From: an archaeon
GTDB lineage: Archaea; Nanobdellota; Nanobdellia; Woesearchaeales; GW2011-AR9
Assembly: GCA_043812455.1 (NCBI GenBank)
Contig: JBDRMB010000027.1
Span: forward strand, 1 to 61,351
Direction: 5' to 3'
DNA: 61,351 nucleotides
Part shown: positions 1,141 to 44,500 of the stretch, piece after piece
How positions within the stretch are numbered: position 1 is the stretch's first letter
How the letters are laid out: each line of letters opens with the position of its first letter
Notes under the pieces: generated by a model
Told to the model about the DNA's origin: nothing
The model's database searches: none
What the model saw: the letters and a program-made list of their open reading frames with translations, nothing else
Program-made: the position numbers and the translations under genes

Positions 1141-1857
1141 ATGAAATTTGATGTGAAAAATGTAAATTTAAGCTATTATGATAAGAAAATTGGACTAATT
1201 CTTCCAGAATGTCCTTCATGCGAATTAGCAGAGTTTATTGGAATTCTTACTGGCGATGGTTATATGAATAAATATGGAAAATACTTTTCTATTGTAGAAA
1301 TTGTTGGAGATCCTAGGTTTGACAAAGCATATTTAGAAAATCATGTTACAAATATGATTAATAATTTATTTAACTTGAAACCAAAAGTAGATTTCAAGAG
1401 AACTCAAAACCTAATGAGCATAAGATTGATGTCTAAAGGATTGAATAATTATCTTGAATTGGTTGGTTTCAAGTCTGGGAAGAAAGGTCAAATCGGAATT
1501 CCTTCTTGGATTTTAGAAAATGATGAATATATGAAATTTTTTATAAAAGGTTTAGTTGACACTGATGGGTGTTTAACTTTGCTTAACAGAAAGCATAAAA
1601 ATTTTAATTTTTATCCAAGAGTACAAATAACCTCAATTAGTAAATCATTAATAGATGATGTTGGGACATGGTTAAGTAATCAGGGATTTTCTGTATGTTT
1701 AATGAAAGACTGTGGAAAAAGAACATACAAAGGGGTAACTAAAATTCACGAAGGTTATCGATTTAATATTAATGGTTATACACAACTTCAGGTTTGGATG
1801 AATCTTATTGGTTTTAGAAATAAGAGACATTTAGATAAATATGAAAAGTTAAAATAA
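1141..1857 (+). CDS. Free-standing double-motif LAGLIDADG endonuclease
   Basis: Motifs LAEFIGILTGDGY and FIKGLVDTDG; no intein splicing termini evident. Confidence 0.85.
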   Translation: MKFDVKNVNLSYYDKKIGLILPECPSCELAEFIGILTGDGYMNKYGKYFSIVEIVGDPRFDKAYLENHVTNMINNLFNLKPKVDFKRTQNLMSIRLMSKGLNNYLELVGFKSGKKGQIGIPSWILENDEYMKFFIKGLVDTDGCLTLLNRKHKNFNFYPRVQITSISKSLIDDVGTWLSNQGFSVCLMKDCGKRTYKGVTKIHEGYRFNINGYTQLQVWMNLIGFRNKRHLDKYEKLK

Positions 1858-1861
1858 AAAA

Positions 1862-1995
1862 TGGGAACGGTGGGATTTGGACCCACAACTTCCAGATCTT
1901 CAGTTTCACCAAAGATATTGAATCCAATACCTTACTGGCGCTCTTTTCTGCAAATGCAGAAAATTTGCAATTGTCCCAGATTAAGCTACGTTCCC
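1862..1995 (-). tRNA. tRNA-Phe(GAA) with two introns (D-loop and 30/31, about 30 nt each)
   Basis: Acceptor GGGAACG/CGTTCCC-A; spliced anticodon arm CCAGA-CTGAAGA-TCTGG; T arm GTGGG-TCCAAAT-CCCAC; both introns form hairpins, and the 30/31 intron has BHB-like geometry. Confidence 0.85.
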
Positions 1996-2045
1996 AATAA
2001 AAGCAAAATAGTTCTAAGCTATTTATAAGTATTTTGGTAAAAGAA

Positions 2046-9739: not shown

Positions 9740-9835
9740 GGGCCGGTAGTATAGTGGTAAAATAGATGCTTGGCTATGATCCGACAAAGGTCAACTAAAC
9801 AGCGTCAGTCCCGGGTTCGACTCTCGGTCGGTCCA
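9740..9835 (+). tRNA. tRNA-Ala(GGC) with a 25-nt anticodon-loop intron
   Basis: Acceptor GGGCCGG/TCGGTCC-A with the G3-U70 alanine determinant; anticodon stem GATGC/GCGTC; TTGG/CTAA central helix; T arm CCGGG-TTCGACT-CTCGG. Confidence 0.8.
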
Positions 9836-37361: not shown

Positions 37362-37401
37362 ACCACACATCCACTGGTCAAGTGCGGACAAAGTATATAA
37401 A
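37362..37401 (+). promoter_or_regulatory. 22-bp conserved box plus TATA box, copy 2
   Basis: ACCACACATCCACTGGTCAAGT, 9 bp, then GTATATAAA. Confidence 0.7.
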
Positions 37402-37439
37402 CTAGCAATTCTATGAACTATTGTGATAATTTTTCAGAC

Positions 37440-37471
37440 TTTTCAAGTTTAAGATTGTAGAAACTTGAAAA
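37440..37471 (+). promoter_or_regulatory. 5'-UTR hairpin of the second LAGLIDADG gene
   Basis: Perfect 11-bp stem TTTTCAAGTTT/AAACTTGAAAA covering TTG 37465 and ending 8 nt before ATG 37480. Confidence 0.55.
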
Positions 37472-38181
37472 CTAAAAAAATGAATATTAAAAAAATTCAT
37501 AAAATTGATCTTAATGAAAATACTGCCTATCTTGCAGGAGCAATTGTTGGAGATGGTCATATTTCTAATTCTTGTAAATCAAAAACAGATAAATCTAAAG
37601 ATTACAAAATTGCCATAGAAGTAATAGATAAGGAGTTTTTGATGGAAGTTGAAGCTTTAATTAAATCTATCATACAAACTAAAAGTACTATTAAAGGGCG
37701 ATATGACCTTAGGGGATGTAGAAAGAAATTGTATTATTTTCAGTTCAGGAATAAGAGCTTCTACTATTTTTTGACAAAAGATCTAGAAATAAAGGCAGGT
37801 AATAAGTGTTCTTCTGTAGTTATTCCAAAGAAAATATTTTATTCATTAAACTTACAAAAATCCTTCATTGCTGGTCTTTTTGATACTGATGGGGGAATAA
37901 GGGGAAAAACAATAGGATTTACTTCTTCAAGCAAAATATTAATTTATCAAACAAGTATAATTCTAAATAACTTGAAAATAAAACATTCTGTAGAATCTTG
38001 GCTAAACAAGAAATATAACCAGAAGTATTATGGAATAAGAATTAGTAAGATAGATAGCGATATCTTTTTAAATAACGTACCTCTTAGGAATAAAGAAAAA
38101 CTCAAAAGAGTCTTTTATCATGTGGGCGTGCCGGAGTGGTCAAACGGGATAGAAAATTCTATGATCCAAATCAAGAATTAG
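37465..38181 (+). CDS. Free-standing double-motif LAGLIDADG endonuclease overlapping tRNA-Leu
   Basis: AYLAGAIVGDGH and FIAGLFDTDG; the last 20 codons run through the tRNA 5' exon into its intron. Confidence 0.85.
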   Translation: MKTKKMNIKKIHKIDLNENTAYLAGAIVGDGHISNSCKSKTDKSKDYKIAIEVIDKEFLMEVEALIKSIIQTKSTIKGRYDLRGCRKKLYYFQFRNKSFYYFLTKDLEIKAGNKCSSVVIPKKIFYSLNLQKSFIAGLFDTDGGIRGKTIGFTSSSKILIYQTSIILNNLKIKHSVESWLNKKYNQKYYGIRISKIDSDIFLNNVPLRNKEKLKRVFYHVGVPEWSNGIENSMIQIKN

Positions 38182-38272
38182 TCCAAGCTTAGGCCGGTTT
38201 GGTAAGGTATAAACTTACTGGAAGATACCTATTGGTTTAGTACCTACGCAGGTTCGAACCCTGCCGCCCACA
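38122..38272 (+). tRNA. tRNA-Leu(TAG) with two introns (30/31 and 37/38)
   Basis: Acceptor GTGGGCG/CGCCCAC-A; spliced arm ATAGG-CTTAGGA-CCTAT; long variable arm; introns 38153-38186 and 38194-38226. Confidence 0.88.
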
Positions 38273-38309
38273 TTCCTTTTCTTTTGGTGATTGATGTTAA
38301 AGGTAAAAA

Positions 38310-44460: not shown

Positions 44461-44500
44461 CCCACACACCCACTGGACAGGTTCGGAAAAGGTATTTAAA
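44461..44500 (+). promoter_or_regulatory. 22-bp conserved box plus TATA box, copy 3
   Basis: CCCACACACCCACTGGACAGGT, 9 bp, then GTATTTAAA. Confidence 0.7.

What the first reader, a model, noticed from the sequence alone, without database searches (positions are those of the whole stretch)
38122..38186. Endonuclease ORF reads through the tRNA-Leu 5' exon and takes its stop codon from the tRNA intron
Seen: the ORF ends HVGVPEWSNGIENSMIQIKN*, with TAG at 38179-38181 inside the 30/31 intron (38153-38186). With both introns removed the frame stays open through the whole tRNA and stops only at a TGA just downstream. Inference: on a shared transcript, tRNA 5' processing or intron splicing would destroy the mRNA's stop, coupling nuclease expression to tRNA maturation and making the gene depend on the intron.
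Basis: partly seen in the sequence, partly recalled or inferred. Interest (0 to 1): 0.62.

Follow-up and report, generated by a model that had tools for sequence, protein, structure and literature searches.

The report
Homing endonuclease gene fused onto tRNA-Leu
A selfish DNA-cutting enzyme gene sits flush against an intron-bearing leucine tRNA gene in a tiny archaeon and borrows its stop codon from the tRNA's intron; the overlap looks like a side effect of tight packing, but the enzyme and intron always occur together, which suggests how archaeal tRNA introns could spread.

Summary
A 233-codon I-DmoI-like LAGLIDADG gene (37480-38181) runs through the 31-nt 5' exon of tRNA-Leu(UAG) (38122-38272). 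It stops at TAG 38179-38181, inside a 34-nt bulge-helix-bulge (BHB) intron at tRNA position 30/31. With both introns removed, the frame stays open to TGA 38288-38290.

This is not a recent stop loss. All 36 distinct orthologous loci, from Woesearchaeota/Nanoarchaeota genomes, sit flush 5' of tRNA-Leu(UAG), and every one has the 30/31 intron. About 85% of the full-length protein clusters read into the tRNA.

The read-in occurs in all three frames. The stop falls variously before the tRNA, on its first bases, at the exon end, in the intron, or on the anticodon TAG. The tRNA-coded tail is predicted to be disordered. The overlap therefore looks incidental rather than regulatory.

The conserved features are:
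- the adjacency of the gene and the tRNA;
- the intron;
- a promoter-like TTTTTAAA inside the gene's 3' end, fixed at synonymous sites (TTA 33/33);
- a patchy, partly horizontal distribution (14 of 401 genomes, with decayed copies).

Seven loci keep orphan tRNA 5' ends (nt 1-12 to 1-28) upstream of the cassette. This suggests a break near the intron site.

Best reading: a free-standing homing endonuclease that moves together with an ORF-less intron, similar to collaborative homing. No RNA or cleavage data were available.

The parts
37363..37383 (+). 21-nt box CCACACATCCACTGGTCAAGT directly upstream of the cassette's TATA box. Probable operator or left end of the cassette.
   Evidence: The genome holds 16 copies (up to 4 mismatches), each 8-10 nt upstream of a TATA box. 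At least 9 precede LAGLIDADG-type genes, and others precede DNA-repair genes. ACTGGACA variants precede the ortholog in G018, G013, G385 and L101.
37393..37402 (+). TATA box (GTATATAAAC) of the endonuclease gene.
   Evidence: It lies 78-87 nt upstream of the ATG and has the same box-TATA layout as the other 15 copies.
37440..37471 (+). Perfect 11-bp hairpin in the 5' leader (TTTTCAAGTTT / AAACTTGAAAA).
   Evidence: Present in this window. It is not conserved in orthologous leaders (z-scores -2.9 to +1.2), so its significance is doubtful.
37480..38181 (+). Free-standing two-motif LAGLIDADG homing endonuclease gene (233 codons plus TAG). The folded core spans about residues 13-215.
   Evidence: Pfam LAGLIDADG_3 E 3e-15. 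phmmer to I-DmoI E 6e-6. AlphaFold model pLDDT 88.7, best PDB fold match I-DmoI at TM 0.79. D25-G26 and D137-G138-G139 are invariant in 56 orthologs.
38050..38073 (+). Promoter-like element ATAGATAGCGATATCTTTTTAAAT embedded in codons 191-198. Candidate BRE/TATA for the tRNA.
   Evidence: In 36 loci, F196 is TTT 35/35 and L197 is TTA 33/33, whereas other conserved Leu columns use TTA 72/200. The motif matches the GNTTTTTAAA consensus found at -35 of tRNA-Leu genes that lack the endonuclease. It is usually the best such site in the ORF.
38122..38272 (+). tRNA-Leu(UAG) gene with two introns, single copy in this genome.
   Evidence: ARAGORN calls it after hand splicing. A pattern scan finds one copy in the genome.
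38122..38152 (+). tRNA 5' exon (nt 1-30), also read as codons 215-225 of the endonuclease ORF.
38153..38186 (+). Non-canonical BHB intron at tRNA position 30/31 (34 nt). It holds the last codons of the ORF.
   Evidence: The central helix 38147-38150 x 38181-38184 and an internal stem AATTCT.TGAT/ATCAAGAATT are present. A homologous intron occurs in 36/36 endonuclease-linked tRNAs.
38179..38181 (+). Stop codon TAG of the endonuclease ORF. Its G is the first base of the 3' strand of the BHB central helix.
38187..38193 (+). 7-nt middle exon GCTTAGG (nt 31-37, anticodon TAG at 38190-38192).
   Evidence: In several orthologs this anticodon TAG is itself the ORF's stop codon.
38194..38226 (+). Canonical-position intron 37/38 (33 nt, boundaries ambiguous by 1 nt).
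   Evidence: The conserved 3' end ...GAAGAT|A resembles relatives.
38227..38272 (+). tRNA 3' exon (nt 38-73, long variable arm, no encoded CCA).
38273..38290 (+). T-rich tract TTCCTTTTCTTTTGGTGA. Likely the archaeal terminator. It contains the TGA that would end the ORF on a fully spliced frame.
   Evidence: Terminator function is inferred from general knowledge of archaeal oligo-T terminators.

Best explanation
The window holds a selfish, free-standing, I-DmoI-like LAGLIDADG homing endonuclease cassette. It comprises a 21-nt box, a TATA box, a leader and the ORF, and it is inserted flush against the 5' end of the single-copy tRNA-Leu(UAG) gene.

The ORF has no stop codon of its own. The G+C-rich tRNA exon has no stop before its last three bases in any frame. 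The ORF therefore runs on until the first in-frame stop in the A+T-rich 30/31 BHB intron. This overlap is a by-product of extreme compaction: the tRNA- and intron-coded tail is a disordered appendage with no conserved frame or end point.

What selection maintains is:
(i) an intact nuclease;
(ii) tight linkage to a tRNA allele interrupted at position 30/31;
(iii) a promoter-like TTTTTAAA inside the last helix of the ORF. This probably transcribes the tRNA now that the ancestral -35 promoter has been pushed about 700 bp away.

Inferred mechanism: the enzyme cuts uninterrupted tRNA-Leu(UAG) genes at or near the 30/31 site. The break is repaired from a cassette-bearing allele, so the endonuclease gene and the ORF-less intron are copied in together. 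The intron then makes the new allele immune. This resembles collaborative homing. The gene later decays, leaving intron-only alleles.

Shown: the anatomy, the family-wide linkage, the patchiness and decay, one horizontal transfer, the synonymous constraint and the orphan tRNA ends. Inferred: the cleavage site, the immunity and the promoter activity.
For: Anatomy and fold of the enzyme.

Linkage:
- 36 of 36 distinct ortholog loci lie directly 5' of tRNA-Leu(UAG) and all carry a 30/31 intron of 17-39 nt.
- Among about 150 listed tRNA-Leu(UAG) genes of the order, I counted by hand about 26 with this intron and about 120 without. None of those without has the endonuclease.

The overlap is incidental:
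- 51 of 60 protein clusters read into the exon, split 38/5/8 across the three frames.
- Stops fall in intron 1 (18), on the anticodon TAG (4), on the last 3 nt of the exon (3), before or on the tRNA start (about 4, taking G040's real stop), or further downstream (2).
- The tail has pLDDT below 50.
- A paralog on contig C39 likewise ends in the antisense of another tRNA's intron.

Selfish behaviour:
- The ortholog occurs in 14 of 401 genomes of the order, in 14 families. Copies in G247, G117, G126, G319 and G384 are degenerate or truncated.
- In the endonuclease tree, G391 (another family) nests inside the window's family (support 99/98). The AU test rejects family monophyly at p 0.025. The EF-2 tree supports family monophyly at 100%.

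Empty sites: the interval between the Cys-rich gene and the tRNA is about 90-115 nt, with a TATA at -35, in G012, G009, G002 and G371. It is about 780-830 nt in G000, G018 and G013.

Embedded promoter-like element: TTT 35/35 and TTA 33/33 at codons 196-197, located at -57 to -65 from the tRNA.

Break site: 7 of 36 loci keep an orphan copy of tRNA nt 1-12, 1-16, 1-16, 1-23, 1-23, 1-23 or 1-28, each with its own -35 TATA, upstream of the cassette. The end points vary but all lie 5' of position 30/31.

Precedent: collaborative homing of F-CphI with the psbA intron (PMC6083498).
Against:
- The intron is two to three times more widespread than the endonuclease. At least 14 intron-bearing loci show no endonuclease remnant and have a normal -35 promoter. 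The intron may therefore be older than the gene, and the association could reflect co-conversion or a preference for intron-rich lineages.
- 25 of about 26 30/31-intron genes also carry a 37/38 intron (my hand count). This fits a lineage effect as well as co-transfer.
- The endonuclease tree partly follows the species tree (G029+G191 in both trees), and the AU p of 0.025 is modest.
- Orphan tRNA ends also occur at loci without the endonuclease, including 3' orphans that begin in the T-loop. Some rearrangements there may therefore have other causes.
- The promoter reading rests on sequence only. The T5 tract could instead be a pause or termination signal.
Confidence: 0.7

Rival explanations
1. 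The endonuclease mRNA is the 5' leader of the pre-tRNA, on one joint transcript. RNase P cleavage or intron splicing removes the mRNA's stop codon. Nuclease synthesis is then limited to unprocessed precursors and tied to tRNA maturation, and the gene needs the intron for proper termination.
For: The ancestral -35 tRNA promoter is displaced. There is no clear terminator between the ORF and the tRNA. 85% of family members end inside the tRNA gene. In seven loci the native tRNA promoter plus an orphan tRNA start lies upstream of the endonuclease gene and would transcribe into it.
Against: The read-in occurs in all three frames and stop positions vary, including before the tRNA. The tail is disordered. 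Removing the introns only lengthens the ORF by 14 residues. A promoter-like element under synonymous constraint lies inside the ORF at the right distance to drive the tRNA separately.
Confidence: 0.12
2. A domesticated LAGLIDADG protein with a host function linked to this tRNA. It might be a maturase-like helper for folding or splicing of the relaxed 30/31 BHB intron, or a regulator. It would be inherited vertically and lost often.
For: Strict co-occurrence with the 30/31 intron. The BHB motif is relaxed, with a weak outer helix. There is precedent for LAGLIDADG maturases among the fold matches (bI3 and the bifunctional 1p8k). The tree is partly congruent with the species tree.
Against: Only 14 of 401 genomes have the gene, while many more have the intron and evidently splice it without this protein. 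The catalytic Asp residues are invariant. Decayed copies exist. There is a signal of horizontal transfer. Known maturases act on group I introns, not on protein-spliced BHB introns (general knowledge).
Confidence: 0.08
3. A simple free-standing endonuclease whose target is the junction at the tRNA 5' end (intronless homing). Under this model the 30/31 intron is only a hitch-hiker, co-converted because it lies 31 nt away, and gives no immunity.
For: The gene always sits exactly at tRNA nt 1. Co-conversion of flanking markers is typical of free-standing endonucleases (PMC6083498 background, PMC2790892 abstract).
Against: The orphan tRNA fragments retain nt 1-12 up to 1-28, so the breaks lay inside the tRNA 3' of those points, not at nt 1. 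Intron-only alleles with closely similar introns and native promoters exist, for example G009 versus G000. These are easier to obtain if the break is at the intron site and repair resolves within the 31-nt exon.
Confidence: 0.1

Closest known systems
Collaborative homing: free-standing endonuclease F-CphI beside the intron-containing psbA gene of cyanophage S-PM2 (Zeng, Bonocora & Shub 2009, as summarised in PMC6083498)
   Same: In both, a free-standing endonuclease gene lies next to a gene interrupted by an intron that has no ORF of its own. The intron is proposed to block self-cleavage, and the nuclease gives the intron mobility. The two elements co-occur.
   Different: Here the intron is a protein-spliced archaeal BHB intron in a tRNA, not a self-splicing group I intron in a protein gene. 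The nuclease is LAGLIDADG, not Endo VII-like. The host is a cellular DPANN archaeon, not a phage. The nuclease ORF physically overlaps the interrupted gene. Cleavage specificity is untested here.
I-DmoI, the LAGLIDADG endonuclease encoded inside the BHB intron of Desulfurococcus mobilis 23S rRNA
   Same: It is the closest solved structure by sequence and by fold. Both are monomeric two-domain enzymes with the same acidic residues, and both are archaeal and associated with a BHB intron.
   Different: I-DmoI lies wholly inside its intron. Here only the last 9 codons are in the intron and about 640 nt lie upstream of the tRNA. The target is a tRNA gene, not an rRNA gene.
Phage T4 free-standing endonucleases (mobE trans-homing of I-TevIII, PMC2790892; SegB in the T4 tRNA gene cluster, from my own knowledge)
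   Same: These are free-standing homing endonuclease genes wedged between conserved genes that mobilise flanking DNA. SegB acts in a tRNA gene region.
   Different: They belong to different nuclease families (HNH, GIY-YIG) and are in phage genomes. They have no intron partner in the tRNA and no ORF/tRNA overlap.
Integrative elements that insert into tRNA genes and carry a replacement tRNA end
   Same: Orphan tRNA ends flank the insert, and the functional tRNA is rebuilt from element-borne sequence.
   Different: No integrase is present. The orphan end points vary (nt 12-28) rather than sitting at a fixed attachment core, and the element is under 1 kb.
Synthetic cleave-and-rescue (ClvR) gene drives (from my own knowledge)
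   Same: The logic would match: a nuclease destroys the essential wild-type allele, and the element carries a cleavage-resistant functional copy.
   Different: This is a natural element, resistance would come from an intron, and none of this has been tested.

Membership tests
LAGLIDADG homing endonucleases (monomeric, I-DmoI type) | Two LAGLIDADG motifs, each ending in a conserved acidic residue | tested here: met
   The motifs are LAGAIVGDGH and IAGLFDTDGG. D25/G26 and D137/G138/G139 are invariant in 56 orthologs. Pfam LAGLIDADG_3 scores above its cut-off.
LAGLIDADG homing endonucleases (monomeric, I-DmoI type) | Tandem alpha-beta-beta-alpha-beta-beta-alpha fold | tested here: met
   The AlphaFold model has pLDDT 88.7 and pTM 0.85. 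Foldseek's top hits are I-DmoI, E 5e-12, TM 0.79.
LAGLIDADG homing endonucleases (monomeric, I-DmoI type) | Site-specific double-strand cleavage of an allele lacking the element | not testable with these tools
   Only indirect evidence: orphan tRNA ends stop at nt 12-28.
LAGLIDADG homing endonucleases (monomeric, I-DmoI type) | Sporadic distribution, decay and horizontal spread typical of selfish elements | tested here: met
   14 of 401 genomes carry it, and some copies are truncated or hold stop codons. The tree is incongruent with EF-2, AU p 0.025.
Intron-encoded homing endonuclease (ORF inside its intron) | The ORF lies within the intron it mobilises | tested here: not met
   Only codons 225-233 lie in the 34-nt intron. 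The rest of the ORF lies upstream of the tRNA.
Collaborative homing (free-standing endonuclease plus ORF-less intron) | Free-standing endonuclease gene adjacent to a gene interrupted by an intron without an ORF | tested here: met
Collaborative homing (free-standing endonuclease plus ORF-less intron) | Endonuclease and intron co-occur across genomes | tested here: met
   36/36 endonuclease loci have the 30/31 intron. By my hand count, about 26 of about 150 listed tRNA-Leu(UAG) genes in the order have it. This is not corrected for phylogeny.
Collaborative homing (free-standing endonuclease plus ORF-less intron) | The enzyme cuts the intronless allele at the intron insertion site, and the intron blocks cutting | not testable with these tools
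   Indirect only.
Archaeal bulge-helix-bulge intron | 4-bp central helix with splice sites in flanking 3-nt bulges | tested here: met
   The helix formed by exon nt 25-28 and intron nt N-5..N-2 has 4/4 pairs in 32 of 34 distinct introns, with covariation. The register follows my recollection of the A-I pair geometry.
Archaeal bulge-helix-bulge intron | Flanking helices h and h' (strict hBHBh') | tested here: inconclusive
   The inner stem is strong, but the outer helix has about 1 bp. That makes this a relaxed motif, which needs a broad-specificity splicing endonuclease. I did not look for that enzyme.
Archaeal bulge-helix-bulge intron | Removal yields a canonical tRNA | tested here: met
   ARAGORN calls tRNA-Leu(tag), 84 nt, after removal.
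   Three frames and at least five classes of stop position occur.
   The ancestral promoter is displaced, but a constrained internal promoter-like site exists. No RNA data were available.

The most novel reading that the evidence does not exclude
The endonuclease and the intron-interrupted tRNA-Leu allele together act as a natural cleave-and-rescue drive. The enzyme breaks the essential uninterrupted tRNA gene at position 30/31. Repair installs the cassette together with a cleavage-proof, intron-bearing tRNA and its own embedded promoter. If true, homing endonucleases are a route by which non-canonical BHB introns arrive and spread in archaeal tRNA genes. A 2026 preprint on Asgard tRNA introns states that this question is still open (10.64898/2026.10.13.758758).
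Probability: 0.45. Interest if true: 0.85.

Novelty: new variant of a known kind. Interest (0 to 1): 0.64.

Why it matters
How archaeal tRNA genes acquire their many non-canonical introns is unresolved. [quoted passage not shown]

Here a nuclease family is tied one-to-one to a specific intron position in a specific tRNA across dozens of DPANN genomes. Empty sites, decayed copies and orphan tRNA ends all mark where the gene was broken. This gives a concrete, testable mechanism: collaborative homing with a protein-spliced intron.

It also shows a selfish element that appears to carry a replacement promoter for the essential gene it displaces.

There is a practical consequence too. Standard tRNA finders miss this tRNA, and public protein records for this family mostly include 10-25 residues that are translated tRNA and intron sequence.

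Full-text searches for LAGLIDADG combined with DPANN, Woesearchaeota or tRNA-gene terms, and with BHB or tRNA-intron terms, returned no paper describing this arrangement.

Tried and rejected
- ARAGORN, with or without intron mode, and Rfam at gathering threshold do not find the tRNA. It had to be spliced by hand.
- AATAAAGAAAA (the NKEK codons, about -32) as the tRNA promoter: rejected because its spacing to the tRNA varies from 22 to 55 nt among orthologs.
- The leader hairpin at 37440-37471 as a conserved translational brake: it is present here, but orthologous leaders have no comparable structure.
- U UUU UUA in the FLN codons as a -1 frameshift site: considered and rejected. The base before the T-run is C or A in most orthologs, and the conserved block extends upstream to ATAGAT, which fits BRE/TATA better.
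- Class I LysRS as a divergence yardstick: only 4 of 13 genomes have a hit, so I used EF-2 instead.
- Searching for endonuclease remnants upstream of intron-only tRNAs with a family HMM found only G384, plus a tiny trace seen by eye in G311.
- A hidden tRNA 5' fragment upstream of the cassette in this window: none found. The box resembles the D-loop (TGGTCAA), but that is only 7 bases.
Full report
**1. What is in the window**

The window is contig C27 of a 1.14-Mb archaeal genome with about 33% G+C, in 44 contigs. Related records are named Candidatus Woesearchaeota or Nanoarchaeota.

An ORF at 37480-38181 (+) encodes 233 residues ending ...HVGVPEWSNGIENSMIQIKN, followed by TAG at 38179-38181. 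It has two LAGLIDADG motifs, LAGAIVGDGH and IAGLFDTDGG, and matches Pfam LAGLIDADG_3 at E 3e-15. Its closest solved relative by sequence is I-DmoI, E 6e-6. An AlphaFold model built on 56 orthologs is confident (pLDDT 88.7, pTM 0.85), and its best fold match is I-DmoI at TM 0.79. D25/G26 and D137/G138/G139 are invariant across the orthologs, so the active site looks intact.

ARAGORN and Rfam miss the neighbouring tRNA. After removing 38153-38186 and a 33-nt insert at 37/38, ARAGORN calls an 84-nt tRNA-Leu(UAG) that starts at 38122.

- tRNA nt 1 is codon 215 of the ORF.
- The stop lies in the 30/31 intron.
- With both introns removed, the frame is open to TGA 38288-38290.

The 30/31 insert behaves as a BHB intron. 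Exon nt 25-28 pair with intron nt N-5..N-2 in 32 of 34 distinct homologous introns, with compensatory changes. The outer helix is weak, so the motif is relaxed.

**2. Is the overlap a local accident?**

It is not. A protein search found 70 orthologous clusters. Of the 60 that are full length, 51 end in residues translated from the tRNA 5' exon.

At the DNA level I collected 36 distinct orthologous loci. In all 36, the gene lies directly 5' of tRNA-Leu(UAG) on the same strand, and the tRNA carries a 30/31 intron of 17-39 nt.

The read-in is not conserved as a protein:
- The exon is read in frame 0 (VPEWSNG, 38 clusters), frame 1 (CRSGQTG, 5 clusters) or frame 2 (GDAGVVKRD, 8 clusters).
- Among the 32 loci parsed, the stop lies in intron 1 (18), on the tRNA's own anticodon TAG (4), on the last three bases of the exon (3), before or on the first bases of the tRNA (about 4, taking G040's real stop), or further downstream (2). 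The other four loci were not classified.
- Residues 218-233 of the model have pLDDT below 50.

A paralogous LAGLIDADG gene on contig C39 runs antisense through the 3' exon of another tRNA and stops in the antisense of its intron. A third, at 1141-1857 in this window, stops 5 nt short of a convergent tRNA.

The simplest reading is this. These genes are packed against tRNA genes. tRNA exons are G+C-rich and almost free of stop codons, and introns are A+T-rich. A gene that loses its own stop therefore pays nothing and ends at the first stop it meets in the intron.

**3. What is conserved instead**

(a) Linkage to the intron. A pattern scan of 401 genomes of the order listed about 150 tRNA-Leu(UAG) genes. 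By my hand count, about 26 have a 30/31 intron and about 120 do not. The endonuclease ortholog is in 14 of the 401 genomes, always next to an intron-bearing gene and never next to an uninterrupted one. The intron is polymorphic within genera: in g89, G311 and G384 have it while G084 and G412 do not; in g61, G247 has it while G056 and G178 do not.

(b) Selfish dynamics. The 14 genomes belong to 14 families. Copies in G247, G117, G126 and G319 hold stop codons or are truncated. G384 keeps only the C-terminal third of the gene.

In an EF-2 tree, the window's family (G000, G018, G013) is monophyletic with 100% support. In the endonuclease tree, G391, which belongs to another family, nests inside that group (99/98), and the AU test rejects family monophyly at p 0.025. 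Elsewhere the two trees agree (G029+G191). Inheritance is therefore mixed vertical and horizontal.

(c) Empty sites. In relatives with the same neighbours (the Cys-rich protein gene and LysRS), the spacer between the Cys-rich gene and the tRNA is about 90-115 nt, with a TATA-type motif starting at -35 +/- 3. In G000, G018 and G013 the spacer is about 780-830 nt. The cassette has therefore displaced the tRNA's ancestral promoter.

(d) A nucleotide-level element inside the ORF. Across 36 loci, codon 196 is TTT in 35/35 and codon 197 is TTA in 33/33. Other conserved Leu columns use four to six codons, with TTA at 72/200. Other conserved Phe columns use TTT about 81% of the time.

The resulting motif, aaATAGATAnnTTTTTAAAt, starts 57-65 nt upstream of the tRNA in 30 of 36 loci. 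It matches the GNTTTTTAAA consensus of the -35 promoters of tRNA-Leu genes without the endonuclease. It is usually the best such site in the whole ORF. I read it as a replacement BRE/TATA promoter that would start transcription about 30 nt before the tRNA. This is inference from sequence alone.

(e) Fossil breaks. Seven of the 36 loci keep, upstream of the cassette, an orphan copy of the tRNA's first 12, 16, 16, 23, 23, 23 or 28 nt. Each orphan is preceded by its own -35 TATA. In G279 the endonuclease frame is open through the orphan.

The end points vary but all lie 5' of position 30/31. This is what a double-strand break near 30/31 would leave after resection of the left end, copying from a cassette-bearing donor, and end joining. 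A site-specific integrase would give a fixed junction. A break at tRNA nt 1 would leave no orphan.

**4. Mechanism proposed**

The element is a free-standing homing endonuclease that targets the conserved D-stem/anticodon-stem region of uninterrupted tRNA-Leu(UAG) genes. Repair from a cassette-bearing allele copies in the intron, the 31-nt exon and the endonuclease gene. The intron splits the target and protects the new allele.

Resolution of repair inside the 31-nt exon would give intron-only alleles. Together with later decay of the nuclease gene, this would explain why the intron is more widespread than the gene.

This matches collaborative homing as defined for F-CphI and the psbA intron. 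The difference is that the intron here is a protein-spliced BHB intron in a cellular archaeal tRNA gene. Searches of the paper library found no description of such an arrangement. A 2026 preprint states that the route of tRNA intron arrival in archaea remains open.

**5.

A joint transcript is possible. The cassette has its own promoter, made of the box and a TATA at 37363-37402, and nothing obvious terminates transcription before the tRNA. However, the frame-free and position-free overlap, the disordered tail and the constrained internal promoter-like site all argue against a selected coupling between nuclease translation and tRNA maturation. Dependence on the intron is weak, because the ORF would still terminate 14 residues later. 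I rate that model at about 0.12.

**6. Caveats**

- The association counts are not phylogenetically corrected.
- The counts were made by hand, from the 150 rows shown out of about 200.
- 25 of about 26 genes with the 30/31 intron also have a 37/38 intron. A bias towards intron-rich lineages therefore cannot be excluded.
- Orphan tRNA ends also occur at loci without the endonuclease.
- Cleavage, immunity, promoter activity and splicing are all untested.

**7. Earlier notes of this scan**

Earlier notes had already proposed tRNA-linked LAGLIDADG cassettes and collaborative homing for the other locus in this window. I treated that as a lead.

Noticed in passing
window 37363-37383, 1035-1055, 44462-44482; 13 further copies on other contigs of the genome: A 21-nt box, CCACACACCCACTGGTCAAGT, sits 8-10 nt upstream of a TATA box in 16 places. 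At least 9 copies precede LAGLIDADG-type genes. Others precede an HNH-repeat protein, two Bro-N proteins, NreA, a 1329-aa helicase that appears by eye to hold an intein, a small SSB-like protein (by eye), and the HD/OB-xseA-xseB operon. It may define a DNA-break or repair regulon that the endonuclease genes have joined. ACTGGACA variants precede the ortholog in other genera.
   Followed up: partly
L026 (G023), L036 (G010), L080 (G003): 57-63 nt upstream of tRNA-Leu(UAG): Genomes without the endonuclease carry an orphan copy of tRNA nt 1-13, followed by about 45 nt that can pair back onto it, just upstream of the real tRNA. This may be a footprint of a lost cassette.
   Followed up: partly
L046 (G191), L050 (G247), L057 (G056), L061 (G084), L078 (G095): 55-180 nt downstream of tRNA-Leu(UAG): Orphan tRNA 3' ends that begin in the T-loop. 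In G247 and G084 they come with a tandem copy of the downstream flank. The right-hand junctions in the T-loop have no explanation yet.
   Followed up: no
genome contig C39 87118-87783 (+) and tRNA on the minus strand at about 87738-87890: A paralogous LAGLIDADG gene runs antisense through the acceptor and T-arm of an intron-rich tRNA (tail ...GDAGIRTQISRLLP) and stops in the antisense of its intron. It has the same box-TATA unit upstream.
   Followed up: partly
window 1141-1857 (+) and 1863-1996 (-): A second LAGLIDADG gene in the window stops 5 nt before the 3' end of a convergent intron-bearing tRNA. ARAGORN mis-calls that tRNA as Arg with one intron.
   Followed up: partly
relatives' tRNA-Leu(UAG) 37/38 introns (rows, e.g. 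G176, G054, G245, G324): Many 37/38 introns contain GTGATGAGC ... GCGATGA / CTGA motifs. These resemble box C/D guide RNAs, as in the euryarchaeal tRNA-Trp intron. The window's own intron lacks them.
   Followed up: no
genome contig C13 1710-3894 (-) and 3911-5113 (-): The first ~27 residues of aEF-2 match in a separate 43-codon frame, just upstream of the main aEF-2 frame. A 401-aa HTH plus LAGLIDADG ORF lies immediately upstream of them. This could be a frameshift, an insertion or an assembly error.
   Followed up: no
window 9740-9835 (+): The only tRNA that ARAGORN and Rfam report in the window is a 96-nt tRNA-His with anticodon ATG, at 35 bits. It is probably another intron-bearing tRNA that has been mis-parsed.
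   Followed up: no
public protein records of this family (P0002-P0070): About 85% of deposited protein sequences for this family include 10-25 C-terminal residues that are translated tRNA and intron sequence. The tRNA itself is missed by the two standard finders tried here, which suggests it usually goes unannotated (annotation of those records was not checked).
   Followed up: yes
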